Virus record (IMG/VR): IMGVR_UViG_2690316210_000007
Location: 1-35,809 of that record
Origin: a virus
Lineage: Duplodnaviria; Heunggongvirae; Uroviricota; Caudoviricetes
Length of the DNA stretch: 35,809 nt
Reading direction: 5' to 3' (one strand)
Below, piece after piece: positions 3,112-8,966 of the stretch (position 1 is the stretch's first letter; each line of letters opens with the position of its first letter). The notes under the pieces are model-generated. The model searched no databases, was not told where the DNA came from, and saw only the letters and a list, made by a program, of their open reading frames with translations. Made by a program: the position numbers and the translations under genes.

Positions 3112-4968
3112 ATGGCATTTAAACACTATGACGTGGTCAGGGCGGTATCGCCGTCAGACCTTGCGAAACGACTGACACAAAAACTGAAGGAGGGCTGGCA
3201 GCCGTTTGGTAGTCCGGTGGCCATAACCCCTTATACCCTGATGCAGGCGATTGCAGCAGAAGGTGATGTGGTGGTCAGTGGTGCAACTGAGCCGGATTGG
3301 TACTACGTCATCGTACTGGCCGGGCAGTCCAATGCCATGGCTTACGGTGAAGGGCTTCCGCTGCCGGATTCATACGATGCGCCCCATCCGCGCATTAAGC
3401 AACTGGCCCGTCGTAACACAGTGACTCCCGGTGGTGAAGTATGCGTATTTAACGACATCATTCCTGCTGACCATTGTCTGCATGATGTTCAGGATATGAG
3501 TACGATTAACCATCCCCGGGCTGACCTGAGCAAAGGGCAGTACGGCTGTGTCGGACAGGGCTTACATATTGCCAAAAAACTGCTTCCGTATATCCCTAAT
3601 AACGCGGGGATCCTGCTGGTACCATGCTGTCGTGGTGGTTCGGCATTCACCCAGGGCACGGAGGGGACATTCAGCGAGTCCACGGGGGCCAGTCAGGATT
3701 CGGCTCGCTGGGGAGTGGGTAAGCCGTTATATCAGGATCTGCTTTTCCGCACGAAGGCAGCATTGCAGAAAAACCCGAAAAACGTTTTGCTGGCGATATG
3801 CTGGATGCAGGGGGAATTCGATATGACGAATGCCAGTTACGCCCAGCAGCCAGCAGCATTTCTTGCAATGGTACAGCAGTTCCGTGCTGACCTTGCCGGG
3901 CTGGCGGCGCAGTGTCACGGTGGAAGTCCGGCATCAGTCCCCTGGATTTGTGGCGACACGACATACGCGTGGAAACAAGAACACGGTACGCAATATGAAG
4001 TGGTATATGGTGCATATAAAGGTAAAGAATCCCAGCAGATTTATTTTGTTCCCTTTATGACCGATGGTAGCGGAGTTAATACACCGACAAACAACCCGTC
4101 AGAAGATCCTGATATTGCCGGGTCTGGTTATTACGGTTCGGCATCCCGAACGAACAAAAACTGGGTATCATCAAATCGCCCGACGCATTTCAGCTCATGG
4201 GCGCGTCGTGGCATTATTCCCGATCGTATGGCAACTGCTATTCTGAACGTAGCCGGTCGCACCTTAGCCTTCATTAGTGGTAAGGCACCGGAAATCAAAC
4301 CCTCGCCCGGCGGCGACACTCCATCGGGGCCGTCTGATGGTGACACATCCGTTCGTACAGTCTCCCTGCTGCCGACAGCCGGAGAGGCTGCTGCGCAGGG
4401 CTGGACCATCACCGGCGGCAGTGTTGCGCTGGAAGATGGTGTGTTTAAGGTTACCAAGCAGAGCAATAAAACCTGGTCCCTGATGCATCCGGTGGATGAC
4501 GCAGTCTCCCTGCTGACACGGGGTGGCAGACTGAGCTGTAAGTTTCGACTGTCAGGCGCACTGACCAACAACCAGTTCGGTCTGGGAATTTATCTGTATA
4601 CCGATGTAGCGTTACCTGACGTCGTGGCGATGACCGGGACTGGTAACCCGTTCCTGATGTCGTTCTTCACCCAGACCACAGACGGCAAACTGAATCTGAT
4701 GCATCACAGGAAAGCAGGAAACACAAAGTTGGGCGAGTTCGGGAATTACAGTAACGACTGGCAGACGCTGGAGCTGGTGTTCACCGCCGGCAGTGCCACG
4801 GTTACTCCGAAACTGAATGGAGTGGCTGGCCCGGCATTCCAGGTCATAAAAGACAGTCTGACACTGGGGCTGAATGCGCTGACGCTGACGGATATTACCA
4901 AAAATGCAGCGTATGGCGTTGAGATAGAAAGTCTGGTGCTGGAGATAAATGCACCAGCATCATCATAA
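3112..4968 (+). CDS. nanS-p: Prophage sialate O-acetylesterase (nanS-p-like; SGNH/SASA-type esterase with C-terminal extension)
   Basis: 618-aa ORF with RBS ggagga before ATG 3112. Contains the GQSN esterase motif (VIVLAGQSNAMAYGEG). It sits between the tRNA/stx-equivalent region and the lysis cassette, as nanS-p homologues do in Stx and Stx-like prophages. Confidence 0.7.
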   Translation: MAFKHYDVVRAVSPSDLAKRLTQKLKEGWQPFGSPVAITPYTLMQAIAAEGDVVVSGATEPDWYYVIVLAGQSNAMAYGEGLPLPDSYDAPHPRIKQLARRNTVTPGGEVCVFNDIIPADHCLHDVQDMSTINHPRADLSKGQYGCVGQGLHIAKKLLPYIPNNAGILLVPCCRGGSAFTQGTEGTFSESTGASQDSARWGVGKPLYQDLLFRTKAALQKNPKNVLLAICWMQGEFDMTNASYAQQPAAFLAMVQQFRADLAGLAAQCHGGSPASVPWICGDTTYAWKQEHGTQYEVVYGAYKGKESQQIYFVPFMTDGSGVNTPTNNPSEDPDIAGSGYYGSASRTNKNWVSSNRPTHFSSWARRGIIPDRMATAILNVAGRTLAFISGKAPEIKPSPGGDTPSGPSDGDTSVRTVSLLPTAGEAAAQGWTITGGSVALEDGVFKVTKQSNKTWSLMHPVDDAVSLLTRGGRLSCKFRLSGALTNNQFGLGIYLYTDVALPDVVAMTGTGNPFLMSFFTQTTDGKLNLMHHRKAGNTKLGEFGNYSNDWQTLELVFTAGSATVTPKLNGVAGPAFQVIKDSLTLGLNALTLTDITKNAAYGVEIESLVLEINAPASS

Positions 4969-5118
4969 AAAGTGAGCCAGTCAAATGGAAGGTATCGTTA
5001 AACTCACCGGTAGTGTCAGTGGGTCGTCTGAGATGCCTGCATGAGTTATCAGAGCCATCAGTACTTAACTGGTGGCTTTTTTTATTGTTGTCAGCTTCCG
5101 GATAACGGGAGACGGGGT

Positions 5119-5334
5119 ATGTACCAGATGGAAAAAATCACAACAGGTGTGTCATACACCACGTCAGCGGTGGGAACGGGCTACTGGTTCCTGCAGTTGC
5201 TGGACAGGGTTTCCCCGTCTCAGTGGGCGGCAATAGGCGTGCTGGGGAGTCTGCTGTTTGGGCTGCTGACATATCTGACTAACCTGTATTTCAAAATCAG
5301 AGAGGACCGTCGTAAGGCTGCACGGGGAGAGTAA
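5119..5334 (+). CDS. S: Class II holin / pinholin, phage-21 S family (71 aa) with dual-start motif
   Basis: [71 protein letters not shown] closely resembles recalled S21 (..[59 protein letters not shown]). Met1 and Met4 give the antiholin/holin dual start. RBS gggagacgggg. The ORF-track start at 5041 is an upstream extension. Confidence 0.85.
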
Positions 5335-5338
5335 TTCA

Positions 5339-5653
5339 ATGACTCAAAACTATGAACTGATTGTGAAAGGGATCCGCAATTTTGAGAATAAAGTTACGGT
5401 AACTTTAGCGTTACGGGACAAAAAACGCTTTGACGGTGAAATTTTTGACCTGGACATCTCGCTGGACCGTGTTGAAGGTGCCGCGCTGGAGTTTTATGAG
5501 GCAGCAGCCAGAAGGAGCATCAGACAGGTCTTCCTGGATGTTGCTGCCGGGTTATGTGAAGGGGACGAGCTGTTGCCAGAAACGCGCCCCTGTTCAGAGG
5601 CGCGGTATACCATAAAAATTAACAGTTCTGATAACTCGATTACGGGTTGTTAG
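5339..5653 (+). CDS. Hypothetical protein (104 aa) inserted between holin and endolysin
   Basis: Intact ORF with RBS (ggggagagtaattcaATG), tightly packed between S (ends 5334) and R (starts 5709). No lysis-protein motifs recognised; no TM segment or signal peptide seen. Confidence 0.5.
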   Translation: MTQNYELIVKGIRNFENKVTVTLALRDKKRFDGEIFDLDISLDRVEGAALEFYEAAARRSIRQVFLDVAAGLCEGDELLPETRPCSEARYTIKINSSDNSITGC

Positions 5654-5708
5654 CTTTTTGCAGTTGGCTTTCCAGTATCTTTCATTGGTAGCATCCTGAT
5701 AAATATCC

Positions 5709-6242
5709 ATGAGCGCAAAAATCAAATACGGCCTGTCAGCTGCTGTTCTGGCGCTGATTGCTGCAGGCGCGTCTGCTCCTCAAATACTTGACCAGTTTCT
5801 GGATGAAAAAGAGGGTAACCACACTACGGCATACCGCGATGGTTCCGGTATATGGACCATCTGTCGTGGTGCCACAATGGTGGATGGTAAGCCCGTCATA
5901 CCGGGAATGAAGCTGTCGAAGGAAAAATGCGACCAGGTTAACGCTATTGAACGTGATAAGGCGCTGGCATGGGTGGAGCGCAATATTAAAGTACCACTGA
6001 CCGAACCACAGAAAGCGGGTATAGCGTCATTATGTCCCTATAACATTGGCCCCGGTAAGTGTTTCCCGTCGACGTTTTATAAGCGGCTGAATGCCGGTGA
6101 TCGTAAGGGCGCATGCGAGGCGATTCGCTGGTGGATAAAAGATGGTGGGCGCGATTGCCGCATACGTTCAAATAACTGCTATGGACAGGTTATTCGTCGT
6201 GACCAGGAAAGCGCATTAGCCTGTTGGGGGATAGATCAGTGA
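5709..6242 (+). CDS. R: SAR endolysin (T4-lysozyme-type muramidase, phage-21 R-like)
   Basis: N-terminal signal-anchor-release segment ([17 protein letters not shown]) followed by a catalytic E...D...T arrangement ([22 protein letters not shown]). Paired with a pinholin upstream, the canonical pinholin/SAR-endolysin system. Confidence 0.85.
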
Positions 6243-6697: not shown

Positions 6698-6737
6698 TTT
6701 TAATTTCACTGAAATTTAATACGTGACTTTCAGGAAA

Positions 6738-6764
6738 ATGCCTCGCAGATGCGGGGCATTTTTG
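6738..6764 (+). terminator. Intrinsic terminator downstream of Rz/Rz1
   Basis: 9-bp stem atgcctcgc/gcggggcat (one G-U pair), loop agat, followed by TTTTT. Confidence 0.45.
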
Positions 6765-7113
6765 TACAGGTATTTCACCGCGCACCGCAGCGCACTCAAC
6801 CACGTCGAACCAAACCCTTTGGAATGAGCCTTTGAGTAGTCAGTTAGTGCTGGTGAGCCTTGACGGGCTGATCTCCTATGCAGCAAAGGTTCATCTCAAA
6901 GTAAGACGAACGCTATGACAAACCAAGATTCTATAGACCTATCTGATCTTCGTGGAATGGTCATTTTTCCAGACAAAAGGTAATCACCATAGTCGTATGG
7001 CTATGAATCTTGTTGCTGCAGATAAGCATTTTGTGATTGAAGTGGTCAAATCTCTCAAATGCAGTAAAATGCAGTGCGCTATAATTCAATAACGGAGGGA
7101 GTAAGGAGAAGTC

Positions 7114-7734
7114 ATGAAAGATCAAGATGTTAGGTTCGCGGTGCATCATAAGCTTTTGAAAGAATCGCATTTAGATCCAGACTGCCTTGTGGTCGATGAA
7201 TTTTCCATATCCCTTGGCGCCAGTAGAGCAGACATTGCTGTAATAAATGGTGTTATACACGGGTACGAGCTCAAAAGTGAATATGACTCTTTGGAGCGTT
7301 TGCCTCTTCAAATCAAGCATTATTCTTCTGTAATGGACAAGGTTACTCTTGTCGTAGCTGAGAAACACCTTGAGGGAGCATTAAAGTTAATCCCAGGTTG
7401 GTGGGGCGTTAAAACGGTTTCTGTTGGGCCAAAAGGCGCCATTCTTATAAAGCACATGCGTGGAGAAAAGCTTAATCGAAACCATGACACATTGATGCTC
7501 GCTCAATTGCTTTGGAAAGATGAATGTATCGACGTACTTGAACGATGGGGCTATTCCAAAGGAATCAAAAGCAAGCCCCGATTTGAGTTATGGAATATTA
7601 TTGCGGAAAATATTCCAATAGCGAATCTCAGGCCTGAAGTCAGAACAGCCTTAAAGAAACGCGTAGGCTGGAAAGTTAAGGCTTGGCAGGCTGAGTCTGC
7701 GCCAACCAATAAAGCTGTCTCACGACTAACGTAA
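7114..7734 (+). CDS. Hypothetical protein (206 aa) of the AT-rich cargo island; candidate PD-(D/E)xK-type nuclease
   Basis: RBS aaggag 6 nt before ATG 7114; TATAAT at 7080-7085 upstream. Translation shows an ordered E...hhhhD...hhh(E)hK pattern (LLKESHL..CLVVDEF..ADIAVINGVIHGYELKSE). No similarity to lambda late proteins. Visibly lower GC than the flanking phage backbone. Confidence 0.55.
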   Translation: MKDQDVRFAVHHKLLKESHLDPDCLVVDEFSISLGASRADIAVINGVIHGYELKSEYDSLERLPLQIKHYSSVMDKVTLVVAEKHLEGALKLIPGWWGVKTVSVGPKGAILIKHMRGEKLNRNHDTLMLAQLLWKDECIDVLERWGYSKGIKSKPRFELWNIIAENIPIANLRPEVRTALKKRVGWKVKAWQAESAPTNKAVSRLT

Positions 7735-8743
7735 TATGGTGCGTATGTGCAACTTTACGCCATTCTTTAGAGCCGCCAGATTTGTTAGCGCCTAATGATC
7801 TTTGGTAAATGTAATCATCCCCCCAACTAAATTTGGAGCCAAAGACTTGATACTCTGGCGAACTAACAAGGGTAGTACATAAGTTTTTAGTTTGGCCCCA
7901 TCCATTTCCTTTAACTGCGGTACCTTTTACAAAGATCCATGAGGTATCGTTCGAATATCTCACTGAGACATACTGAGACATGAAGCGTGGGTCTACGCTC
8001 GTAATGGTAGAGCTAGCGGTGGGATAATCACTAAAACTTGGCGTTCTTCCATTGCTAAAATTCTGTACTACGTACATCCAAAGATCGTATTCATGGCGCG
8101 GAATATGATGAACTTGATGTTGCGGTATCCCTGCCTGTGATGCCGGGTATGCGGTTGAAGATAAAATCAAGTTTCTCCACGGAGCTTGGCCTGATAATGT
8201 GTTGACCATGCTTAATGCTTGTTGTTTTAAACTATCAGTTGCGTTTTGAATATCTCCAAAATCAATGATTACATCAATTAAACTAGGATGAATATTTAAG
8301 TGGTTAACCAGACTTGTGAATTGGTGCCATGTCTGGGGGGTGATAGATATAGCGAGCCCATTGATTAAGTTGCGTTGAACAGCATGTATATAGTTTGTTG
8401 AATATGCGGGAGAAACAACAGGGATAATTTCCTTACCATTTACTCTAGCATCTTGGATACACATATCTAGAGGATGATGGCGGCTCGAACCATGTTTATC
8501 TAAATATTTAACATCCAGCAAAACAGGACGATTGGCTTTCCAGGATGCCGCAAGGTTAATACCGAAGTCAGATAAGTAAGAACTCAAATTCTTCTTGTAG
8601 CATTCGTTTTCATAATCCCAGTCTATGTCTGGAATGGTAATGATCGGAGTAAAACCAGAGAGCGTAGTTTGATCTAAAAGCATCAGAGATTCATATTCAG
8701 CAGGCTTCCATTTCAGCTGTGGATAATATTGATGTTGACTCAT
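7676..8743 (-). CDS. Hypothetical protein (355 aa) of the AT-rich cargo island, convergent with the 206-aa ORF
   Basis: Minus-strand ORF with RBS AAGGAG 5 nt before its ATG (8741-8743). Alternating short hydrophobic strands (VLLDVKYL, IIPVVSP, GLAISIT, IDVIIDFGDI, NLILSST) suggest an alpha/beta fold. No recognised catalytic motif and no match to lambda proteins. Its 3' end overlaps the 3' end of the + ORF by 59 bp. Confidence 0.55.
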   Translation of the reverse strand: MSQHQYYPQLKWKPAEYESLMLLDQTTLSGFTPIITIPDIDWDYENECYKKNLSSYLSDFGINLAASWKANRPVLLDVKYLDKHGSSRHHPLDMCIQDARVNGKEIIPVVSPAYSTNYIHAVQRNLINGLAISITPQTWHQFTSLVNHLNIHPSLIDVIIDFGDIQNATDSLKQQALSMVNTLSGQAPWRNLILSSTAYPASQAGIPQHQVHHIPRHEYDLWMYVVQNFSNGRTPSFSDYPTASSTITSVDPRFMSQYVSVRYSNDTSWIFVKGTAVKGNGWGQTKNLCTTLVSSPEYQVFGSKFSWGDDYIYQRSLGANKSGGSKEWRKVAHTHHITLVVRQLYWLAQTQPAKP

Positions 8744-8966
8744 TAAAACTCCTTAAAATCTTTACTTATCCTAAGTATAGTGTTATGGCGTAACGCCAAT
8801 TGTTTTTATACACTTGAAAACATTGGGAAAAGTTGAGCTATATCTAAATTTACAAAATTGGATGTTATAGAAATCGAGGTTTCAACTAGGCATGGAACTG
8901 CAAAATTTTTAATGCCTGCACGCGAAAGTCGTTGGCGGGTCCTTTCCGGTGATCCAGATCGTTACG

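What the first reader, a model, noticed from the sequence alone, without database searches (positions are those of the whole stretch)
7676..7734. Convergent 3'-end overlap (59 bp) between the two cargo genes
The + ORF stop (7732-7734) lies 59 bp inside the 3' end of the - ORF. Convergent overlapping transcription would yield complementary 3' UTR and coding RNA, allowing mutual antisense regulation or transcriptional interference between a candidate effector and its partner.
Basis: seen in the sequence. Interest (0 to 1): 0.4.

Follow-up and report, generated by a model that had tools for sequence, protein, structure and literature searches.

The report
Ancient tail-to-tail overlap, recently lengthened
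Two prophage cargo genes, a P4 beta-type protein and a P4 cII/sce7726-type predicted nuclease, really do overlap by 59 bp at their ends. Such an end-to-end overlap marks this gene pair across many bacterial phyla, but its length here comes from one recent stop-codon mutation, and any regulatory role is untested.

Summary
The + ORF 7114-7734 (sce7726 / P4-cII family, 206 aa) and the - ORF 7676-8743 (Pfam Beta_protein, 355 aa) overlap by 59 bp. RefSeq annotates the same coordinates, and 127 complete E. coli genomes carry the region.

The 59 bp is derived. Close relatives (Klebsiella, Edwardsiella, Pantoea, Pectobacterium) have TAG where E. coli has TGG (7684-7686). The A-to-G change at 7685 is synonymous in beta. 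It extends sce7726 by 16 unconserved codons that are predicted to be disordered, taking the overlap from 11 to 59 bp.

The unexpected result is at family level. In 72 species-representative loci from more than ten phyla, all 67 with a beta gene next door are convergent. Of 59 full-length pairs, 57 overlap (10-158 bp, median 50), and 52 of those 57 share one reading phase. In 47 of 60 loci exactly 34 nt separate an invariant sce7726 Arg codon from an invariant beta His codon, so conserved C-terminal motifs of both proteins share the same DNA.

I found no terminator and no conserved RNA structure. Lineages without overlap exist, including P4. The best reading is an inherited dual-coding lock plus a neutral stop loss. 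Antisense regulation remains possible but has no direct support.

The parts
7114..7734 (+). sce7726 / P4-cII-family gene, 206 aa. Predicted PD-(D/E)xK-fold protein and candidate nuclease effector.
   Evidence: NCBIfam sce7726_fam 2e-54 over aa 1-183. PADLOC 'cll' 4e-31. 27% identical to P4 cII, E 3e-19. AF2 pLDDT 88.9. Foldseek top hits are 3dnx, SfsA, splicing endonuclease and Can2.
7676..8743 (-). Beta_protein (P4 beta / PD-lambda-2C family) gene, 355 aa. Predicted TIM-barrel-like fold with a long C-terminal helix.
   Evidence: Pfam PF14350 7e-56. PADLOC PD-Lambda-2_C 6e-32 and 'beta' 7e-10. AF2 pLDDT 94.8 with helix 325-350. Weak TIM-barrel matches, TM about 0.4-0.5.
7676..7734 (.). The 59-bp tail-to-tail overlap. 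It encodes beta residues 337-355 plus stop, and sce7726 residues 188-206 plus stop.
   Evidence: Phase is codon position 1 opposite 1, 2 opposite 3, 3 opposite 2, written (123:132) in the notation of PMC2174442.
7684..7686 (+). TGG (Trp191), the former stop codon of sce7726. The relatives have TAG here.
   Evidence: DNA alignment A2. G7685 is the third position of beta Ala353 (GCC versus GCT), so the change is silent in beta.
7684..7731 (+). 16-codon lineage-specific extension of sce7726 (WQAESAPTNKAVSRLT).
   Evidence: Absent from homologues, which end at about aa 188-193. pLDDT is below 50 for residues 189-206.
7660..7671 (+). Conserved C-terminal motif of sce7726, from Arg183 (7660-7662) to Trp186 (7669-7671).
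   Evidence: R183 is invariant and W186 nearly invariant.
7703..7741 (-). Conserved C-terminal segment of beta: His335-His336 (7736-7741) through Gln343-Leu344 to Leu347.
   Evidence: Lies within the confident helix 325-350.
7231..7275 (+). Candidate PD-(D/E)xK catalytic motif: Asp40 (7231-7233), Glu52 (7267-7269), Lys54 (7273-7275).
   Evidence: All three residues are invariant in 37 homologues. Fold matches are to PD-(D/E)xK proteins. Catalysis is inferred, not shown.
7043..7070 (+). Sigma-70-like promoter candidate upstream of sce7726, with the Shine-Dalgarno AAGGAG at 7103-7108.
   Evidence: Consensus scan, 9 of 12 matches, no more sites than in shuffled sequence. Sequence read. Weak evidence.
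8749..8754 (-). Shine-Dalgarno AAGGAG of beta. The promoter was not identified.
   Evidence: Sequence read. No - strand promoter-like site upstream of 8743.

Best explanation
The window is a phage-21-like lambdoid prophage of E. coli. Between the lysis genes and cos it carries a two-gene cargo module: a Beta_protein gene and a P4-cII/sce7726-family gene. This is the core shared by the P4 gop-beta-cII and PD-lambda-2 anti-phage systems, here without gop and without the HigB/Xre-peptidase genes.

The two genes converge and overlap at their 3' ends. That architecture is inherited. In most members the last conserved motif of sce7726 (R-x-x-W-R) and the last conserved helix of beta (Q-[IL]-[AS]-N-L) are written on the same roughly 20 nt in a fixed phase. 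Each gene's stop often sits inside an invariant codon of the other. Such a dual-coding segment tolerates few substitutions and no frame-shifting indels, so the genes stay locked together.

In the enterobacterial/vibrio subclade that includes this window, 39 extra nt separated the two cores and reduced the overlap to 11 bp or to none. In the E. coli / E. albertii lineage a single A-to-G change at 7685, silent in beta, turned the sce7726 stop TAG into TGG. The ORF then ran 16 codons further to the next stop, giving 59 bp.

What is shown: the coordinates, the mutation, the conservation statistics and the absence of a terminator or conserved structure. What is inferred: that the extension is neutral, that the overlap persists through a coding lock rather than through selection for regulation, and that the pair is a defence module with sce7726 as nuclease. 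One consequence is unavoidable. With no terminator between them, the two mRNAs are complementary at their 3' ends, and each is probably ended by Rho or by polymerase collision inside the partner gene.
For: Identity of the genes. Prophage context.

Stop loss: relatives L003-L006 have TAG at 7684-7686 and an 11-bp overlap. Homologues typically end at 186-193 aa. The tail 189-206 is predicted disordered, whereas beta residues 325-350 form a confident helix.

Family-wide pattern: all 67 loci with a neighbouring beta are convergent. Of 59 full-length pairs, 57 overlap, and 52 of those 57 share one phase. Against the 49% background frequency of that phase, the binomial P is 1e-11. Exactly 34 nt lie between the R183 and His336 codons in 47 of 60 loci. 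The co-encoded conserved residues are listed. The same holds in 78 of 80 viral contigs, in gene calls made by other pipelines, and when starting from beta instead of sce7726.

Reciprocal constraint: beta positions +9/+10 are [AS][NS] where they lie opposite Trp186, but variable in the clade where they no longer do.

No selection for length: observed tails average 8.6 codons against 11.1 expected.

No terminator or structure.
Against: The loci are related by descent and by horizontal transfer, so the counts are not independent events, and the binomial P reflects shared ancestry more than repeated selection.

Overlap persists in three Firmicutes loci and in L061 despite a different phase and spacing. 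A pure frozen-lock model does not require that.

The universal convergent orientation, kept even where the overlap is lost, could reflect selection for convergent transcription.

Neutrality of the 16-codon extension is assumed from its lack of conservation and predicted disorder, not measured. The 39-nt insertion being a duplication is only weakly supported.

No expression or defence data exist for this module.
Confidence: 0.72

Rival explanations
1. The tail-to-tail overlap is a selected regulatory device. Convergent transcription without a terminator makes 3'-complementary mRNAs and head-on polymerase traffic. This couples the levels of the nuclease-like protein and its partner, through RNase III cleavage or transcriptional interference, and could make the module respond to phage-induced changes in transcription.
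For: Convergent orientation is kept in every locus found. Overlap occurs in 57 of 59 full-length pairs across more than ten phyla. Overlap is retained in lineages with altered phase (L061, L065, L067, L068). No intrinsic terminator lies near the stops, so the RNAs must be complementary. Convergent 3'-overlap crosstalk has precedent in E. coli mscL/arfA (abstract of PMC10070815).
Against: Overlap length is very variable and no longer than chance given the beta sequence. P4, L008 and L011 have gaps, and P4 has a terminator hairpin. The window's close relatives manage with 11 bp. There is no conserved RNA structure. The fixed 34-nt geometry and the co-encoded motifs already explain the conservation. 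There are no transcript data.
Confidence: 0.2
2. The 16-residue extension of sce7726 is an adaptive new C-terminal tail, for example a degron or interaction peptide, and the longer overlap is its by-product.
For: The allele is fixed in the E. coli / E. albertii prophage lineage: 127 genomes and 28 viral contigs. It is kept in variant alleles.
Against: It is absent from all other homologues. It is predicted disordered. It was created by one transition that is silent in beta. Its sequence is dictated by beta's conserved helix on the other strand. Lineage diversity is too low to show purifying selection, with 7 differences in 1630 nt.
Confidence: 0.05
3. The overlap is an artefact: a sequencing error, a frameshift, or a wrongly called ORF end.
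For: In one survey, long convergent overlaps were often 3'-end extensions classed as misannotations: 124 of 178 overlaps longer than 60 bp (PMC2478687).
Against: The same sequence and ends appear in 127 complete genomes and in independent assemblies. 3' ends are set by stop codons, not by gene-caller choice. Both ORFs match their families end to end.
Confidence: 0.01

Closest known systems
gop-beta-cII of satellite phage P4 (DefenseFinder/PADLOC 'Rst_gop_beta_cll'; Ghisotti 1990 as cited in, and Rousset 2022 = PMC9122126)
   Same: It has homologous beta (21% identity, the same 355 aa length) and cII/sce7726 proteins (27% identity). The two genes converge. It is carried as non-essential cargo next to cos on a mobile element. 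It is reported to protect against lambda and P1.
   Different: The window has no gop gene. P4 cII is 264 aa, with a long extra C-terminal region. In P4 the genes do not overlap: there is a 27-bp gap holding a terminator hairpin. The window's pair sits in a lambdoid prophage, not a P4-like satellite.
PD-lambda-2 (Vassallo 2022, PMC9519451)
   Same: The third component is a Beta_protein homologue; the window's beta hits PD-Lambda-2_C at 6e-32. In 24-26 natural PD-lambda-2-like loci found here, C overlaps a convergent sce7726 gene in exactly the family manner.
   Different: The window lacks the HigB-like A gene and the Xre-M78 peptidase B gene. The published system is defined as three genes with no sce7726 partner. 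The cloned ECOR42 fragment extends only 396 bp beyond C, so any convergent sce7726 there would have been truncated. That last point is an inference; the ECOR42 sequence was not examined.
Conserved convergent gene overlaps in prokaryotes (PMC2174442; PMC2478687)
   Same: The origin by stop-codon mutation is the mechanism those surveys favour. The phase (123:132) is the commonest one for convergent overlaps. [quoted passage not shown]
   Different: Those surveys found that the few credible long convergent overlaps were mostly conserved only among very close species. This pair keeps its overlap and phase across more than ten phyla, with conserved residues of both proteins co-encoded.
3'-overlapping convergent sense/antisense pairs, such as E. 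coli mscL/arfA (PMC10070815), and type I toxin-antitoxin pairs such as B. subtilis txpA/RatA and bsrG/SR4 (the latter recalled from memory, not checked here)
   Same: Convergent transcription gives RNAs complementary at their 3' ends.
   Different: In those systems regulation was demonstrated, and in type I TA systems one partner is a non-coding RNA. Here both partners are protein-coding and no RNA data exist.

Membership tests
P4 gop-beta-cII system | Beta_protein (PF14350) homologue | tested here: met
   Pfam 7e-56, full-length match. PADLOC 'beta' 7e-10. BLASTP to P4 beta 3e-07.
P4 gop-beta-cII system | cII (sce7726 / PF26915 Phage_P4_cII) homologue | tested here: met
   NCBIfam sce7726_fam 184 bits against a cut-off of 70. 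PADLOC 'cll' 4e-31. BLASTP to P4 cII 3e-19.
P4 gop-beta-cII system | gop gene immediately upstream of, and co-directional with, beta | tested here: not met
   No ORF lies between the beta start (8743) and the cos/terminase region. RefSeq annotates nothing there.
P4 gop-beta-cII system | Anti-phage activity / gop toxicity suppressed by beta | not testable with these tools
   Known only from the literature for P4.
PD-lambda-2 | HigB-like toxin (A) | tested here: not met
   Absent from the window. Present in 23 related loci.
PD-lambda-2 | Xre HTH plus M78 peptidase (B) | tested here: not met
   Absent from the window. Present in 24 related loci.
PD-lambda-2 | Beta-like component C | tested here: met
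   PADLOC PD-Lambda-2_C 6e-32 and 2e-25.
Bare beta/sce7726 convergent two-gene module (the class defined by this analysis) | Adjacent, convergent Beta_protein and sce7726 genes | tested here: met
   The same arrangement is seen in all 67 loci with a neighbouring beta.
Bare beta/sce7726 convergent two-gene module (the class defined by this analysis) | 3' overlap in phase (123:132) | tested here: met
   59 bp, and 59 mod 3 = 2, as in 52 of 57 overlapping pairs.
Bare beta/sce7726 convergent two-gene module (the class defined by this analysis) | Ancestral 34-nt spacing, with the conserved C-terminal motifs co-encoded | tested here: not met
   The spacing is 73 nt in the window and its four closest relatives. 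The conserved cores are separated, and only unconserved or less conserved tails overlap.
PD-(D/E)xK nuclease superfamily (for sce7726) | Restriction-endonuclease-like fold with a D...(D/E)xK motif | tested here: inconclusive
   D40, E52 and K54 are invariant. Foldseek hits to 3dnx and SfsA at E about 5e-4, prob 1.0, but TM only 0.34-0.51. No sequence match to solved structures.

The most novel reading that the evidence does not exclude
The tail-to-tail overlap of beta and sce7726 is an ancient, selected coupling device. Obligate 3' sense-antisense pairing and polymerase collision would set the ratio of a nuclease effector to its TIM-barrel partner, and would help trigger the system when a phage perturbs transcription. 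It would be conserved across more than ten phyla and shared by the P4 gop-beta-cII, PD-lambda-2 and bare two-gene modules. On this reading sce7726 is an overlooked fourth component of PD-lambda-2.
Probability: 0.2. Interest if true: 0.75.

Novelty: new variant of a known kind. Interest (0 to 1): 0.55.

Why it matters
For this prophage, the 59-bp overlap is the trace of one silent-in-beta point mutation.

The wider result is more useful. A convergent gene pair with separate promoters keeps its orientation, overlap and reading phase from Enterobacterales to Patescibacteria, Bacteroidota, Acidobacteriota and Firmicutes. Conserved residues of both proteins, and even their stop codons, are written on the same nucleotides. 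Earlier surveys found credible long convergent overlaps to be few and mostly confined to close relatives (PMC2478687).

This gives three things:
- A natural test case for how dual coding constrains protein evolution. The relaxation of beta positions +9/+10 after the cores separated is an example.
- A reason to treat beta and sce7726 as one unit when annotating gop-beta-cII and PD-lambda-2, whose published three-gene definition omits the convergent gene.
- A simple genetic handle, G7685A, for asking whether overlap length matters.

I found no paper in the searchable library that mentions this overlap.

Tried and rejected
- Intrinsic terminators: none within or near the overlap. None in the gaps of L008 or L011. 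Only P4 has a hairpin.
- RNA structure in the window: z = +1.3 on the + strand and -1.2 on the - strand.
- RNA structure across 47 aligned loci: RNAalifold gives no consensus structure on either strand. A conserved embedded terminator or riboregulator is rejected.
- Selection for long sce7726 tails: rejected by synonymous resampling.
- Sequence search of the PDB: nothing for either protein.
- NCBIfam: no model hits any beta protein, so the recalled 'sce7725' partner family could not be tested.
- The local Pfam copy lacks PF26915, so sce7726 had no Pfam hit, although the source databases list it.
- Looking for PD-lambda-2 on plasmids found HigB plus ImmA/IrrE pairs without beta/sce7726. The ECOR42 locus itself could not be fetched.
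- A first literature search with generic terms returned only noise.
- The idea that the 39 extra nt in the window's clade are a tandem duplication is compatible with the geometry but not demonstrable.

Full report
**Observation.**
The window carries a + ORF at 7114-7734 (206 aa, TAA at 7732-7734) and a - ORF at 7676-8743 (355 aa; its stop reads TTA on the + strand at 7676-7678). They share 7676-7734, which is 59 bp. RefSeq annotates exactly these coordinates in NZ_CP084096 and in variant alleles. The whole pair is present in 126 complete E. coli genomes. The 161 nt around the overlap are present in 127 genomes at >=95% identity, and 28 IMG/VR contigs show the same 59-bp overlap. Each gene has an AAGGAG ribosome-binding site.

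**What the genes are.**
The surroundings are a phage-21-like lambdoid prophage. Holin, lysozyme and Rz lie upstream. The cos site and terminase of phage 21 lie downstream. The pair is therefore cargo between the lysis genes and cos.

- The + gene belongs to the sce7726 family (NCBIfam 184 bits against a cut-off of 70). It matches PADLOC 'cll' at 4e-31 and is 27% identical to P4 cII. Source databases list the family as PF26915 Phage_P4_cII.
- The - gene is a full-length Beta_protein (PF14350, 7e-56). It matches PADLOC PD-Lambda-2_C at 6e-32 and 'beta' at 7e-10, and is 21% identical to P4 beta, which has the same length.
[quoted passage not shown] In PD-lambda-2 the beta-like component C is required for defence (PMC9519451).
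- The window has neither gop nor the HigB-like and Xre-peptidase genes. It is a bare two-gene form.

**Structure predictions.**
- sce7726 has pLDDT 88.9. Its best PDB matches are SPO1766 (3dnx), SfsA, splicing endonucleases and Can2. Asp40, Glu52 and Lys54 are invariant. Together these suggest a PD-(D/E)xK nuclease-like effector. This is an inference.
- beta has pLDDT 94.8 and weak TIM-barrel matches. It ends in a confident helix at residues 325-350.

**Origin of the 59 bp.**
Homologues of the + protein usually end at 186-193 aa. The family core ends at ...LKxRxxW(R/K). The window's protein carries 16 extra residues, WQAESAPTNKAVSRLT.

A DNA alignment with the closest relatives from other genera (Edwardsiella, Klebsiella, Pantoea, Pectobacterium; 77-85% protein identity) shows TAG at 7684-7686 where E. 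coli and E. albertii have TGG. The changed base, 7685, is the third position of beta's Ala353 codon (GCT to GCC), so the change is silent in beta. The relatives overlap by 11 bp.

One transition thus removed the stop, and the ORF ran on to the next in-frame stop. That stop sits on beta's Ile337/Thr338 codons, just after its His-His motif. The extension is predicted to be disordered (pLDDT below 50 for 189-206). The same DNA encodes the confident C-terminal helix of beta. [quoted passage not shown]

**The family-wide pattern.**
I searched one genome per species with a profile of sce7726 alone, so there was no selection on the neighbouring gene. This gave 72 loci. They come from Enterobacterales, Vibrionaceae, Aeromonas, Xanthomonas, Burkholderiales, Alphaproteobacteria, Myxococcota, Desulfovibrionaceae, Acidobacteriota, Patescibacteria, Bacteroidota, Ignavibacteriota, Armatimonadota, Omnitrophota, Dormiibacterota and Firmicutes.

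- A Beta_protein ORF lies next door in 67 of the 72, and it is convergent in all 67.
- 63 of the 67 overlap.
- Of 59 pairs with both genes full length, 57 overlap. The range is 10-158 bp and the median is 50.
- 52 of those 57 have a length of 2 modulo 3, meaning one reading phase: codon position 1 opposite 1, 2 opposite 3, 3 opposite 2.
- That phase, (123:132), accounts for 49% of convergent overlaps of 5 nt or more in a survey of 58 genomes (PMC2174442). The binomial tail is 1e-11. The loci are related, so this number shows inheritance rather than repeated events.
- Viral contigs agree: 79 of 80 are convergent, 78 overlap, and all overlap lengths are 2 modulo 3.
- Independent gene callers report the same pattern.
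- Starting from beta instead gives the same result: a 23-bp overlap in Elizabethkingia and 119 bp in a metagenomic contig.

**Why the overlap is conserved.**
I mapped two invariant residues onto the DNA. In 47 of 60 loci, exactly 34 nt lie between the codon of sce7726 Arg183 and the codon of the second His of beta's NHH motif.

In that geometry, sce7726 R183-x-x-W186-R187 and beta's Q-[IL]-[AS]-[NS]-L are encoded by the same roughly 20 nt. R183 is present in 47 of 47, W186 in 43 of 47, and R187 in 38 of 45.

In the commonest form, with a 50-bp overlap, beta's stop overlaps the first base of the AGG codon for R183. The sce7726 stop TAA lies inside beta's I-N codons. No member terminates before these motifs, so an overlap of about 20 nt is obligatory.

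Beyond that core, the position of the sce7726 stop is what chance gives. Resampling synonymous beta codons predicts a mean tail of 11.1 codons, against 8.6 observed.

There is no consensus RNA structure on either strand, no unusual folding in the window, and no terminator-like site near the stops.

The window's subclade (window plus L003-L006) has 73 nt between the landmarks, which is 34 + 39. This keeps the phase but separates the two cores. Its next relatives have 74 and 75 nt and no overlap (L008, L011). P4 has 345 nt, a 27-bp gap and a terminator hairpin.

Where the cores are separated, beta positions +9/+10 become variable: YW, TL, NL, TQ, TR. Elsewhere these positions are [AS][NS] and lie opposite Trp186. 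This is direct evidence of reciprocal constraint in the overlapped state.

**Interpretation.**
The simplest account has three layers:
- An old dual-coding lock that is hard to undo.
- A rare 39-nt insertion that largely undid it in one gammaproteobacterial subclade.
- A recent, probably neutral, stop loss that lengthened the overlap again in E. coli.

With no terminator, and with both stops inside the partner gene, the two mRNAs must be complementary over at least 59 nt, and polymerases must meet head-on. But nothing shows that this is used for control. The specific 59 bp is not conserved. Lineages with gaps, and one with a terminator, exist.

Some points keep the regulatory reading alive at about 0.2. 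Orientation is universally convergent. Overlap is also retained in lineages where phase and spacing changed (L061 and the Firmicutes loci).

**Side results.**
- In 24-26 loci, beta is preceded by HigB-like and Xre-M78 peptidase genes that match PD-Lambda-2_A and PD-Lambda-2_B (E 4e-34 and 3e-140). Natural PD-lambda-2-type loci therefore carry a convergent, overlapping sce7726 gene that the three-gene definition omits.
- The published ECOR42 clone extends only 396 bp beyond C. It would therefore truncate such a gene, if one is present there. I did not check this.
- HigB plus ImmA/IrrE pairs also occur alone on plasmids.
- A second, divergent beta/sce7726 pair with a 41-bp overlap sits at another cargo site, near hokD, in 93 E. 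coli genomes.

**Novelty.**
The genes and both named defence systems are known, and stop-loss overlaps are a known phenomenon. I did not find the phylum-spanning, phase-locked tail-to-tail overlap with co-encoded conserved motifs described in the searchable literature. Earlier surveys found credible long convergent overlaps to be few and mostly limited to close relatives. I rate the window-specific feature as ordinary and the family-level feature as a new variant of a known kind, with overall interest 0.55.

Noticed in passing
L028 3043-6291; also L025, L030, L031, L036, L041-L047, L051-L056, L058, L060, L064, L066, L069, L071: PD-lambda-2-type loci (HigB-like, Xre-M78 peptidase, beta) in Patescibacteria, Bacteroidota, Acidobacteriota and others all carry a convergent sce7726 gene overlapping component C. 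The published three-gene definition does not include it.
   Followed up: partly
L155 (NZ_AP045177) 4302-5937: A second, divergent beta/sce7726 pair (sce7726 54% identical to the window's) with a 41-bp overlap. It sits at a different cargo site of E. coli lambdoid prophages, between replication/nin genes and hokD, and is present in 93 complete genomes.
   Followed up: partly
L156-L161, 4001-5639: The same module with a 44-bp overlap in integrative elements that carry a Toprim/DUF927 primase and AlpA (P4-like satellites), found in several Enterobacteriaceae.
   Followed up: no
L164 2501-6071 (Elizabethkingia anophelis): A beta/cII pair with a 23-bp overlap lies directly beside a GmrSD-family gene, which suggests a defence-island context.
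   Followed up: no
window 7676-7678 and 7715-7717: Beta's stop lies exactly 13 codons after Gln343. Relative to sce7726 Trp186, this is where the ancestral Gln codon sits in the 34-nt geometry. That is compatible with a 39-nt tandem duplication followed by CAA-to-TAA, but it is not demonstrable.
   Followed up: partly
window 3112-4968: A 618-aa ORF annotated in RefSeq as a DUF6645 domain protein, just upstream of the holin. It is possibly another late-region cargo gene.
   Followed up: no
window about 6737-6765: A GC-rich hairpin followed by a T run (gcctcgcagatgcggggcattttt) lies right after the Rz-like lysis gene. It was seen by eye and was not reported by the scan.
   Followed up: no
L168 (Paraburkholderia plasmid) and L169 (Acinetobacter plasmid): HigB plus ImmA/IrrE metallopeptidase pairs homologous to PD-lambda-2 A/B occur without beta or sce7726. 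The toxin-antitoxin part and the beta/sce7726 part are therefore separable modules.
   Followed up: partly
window 7114-7734: The local Pfam-A copy gives no hit for this protein, although source databases list PF26915 (Phage_P4_cII) for its homologues. This is a library-version gap, not a biological result.
   Followed up: yes
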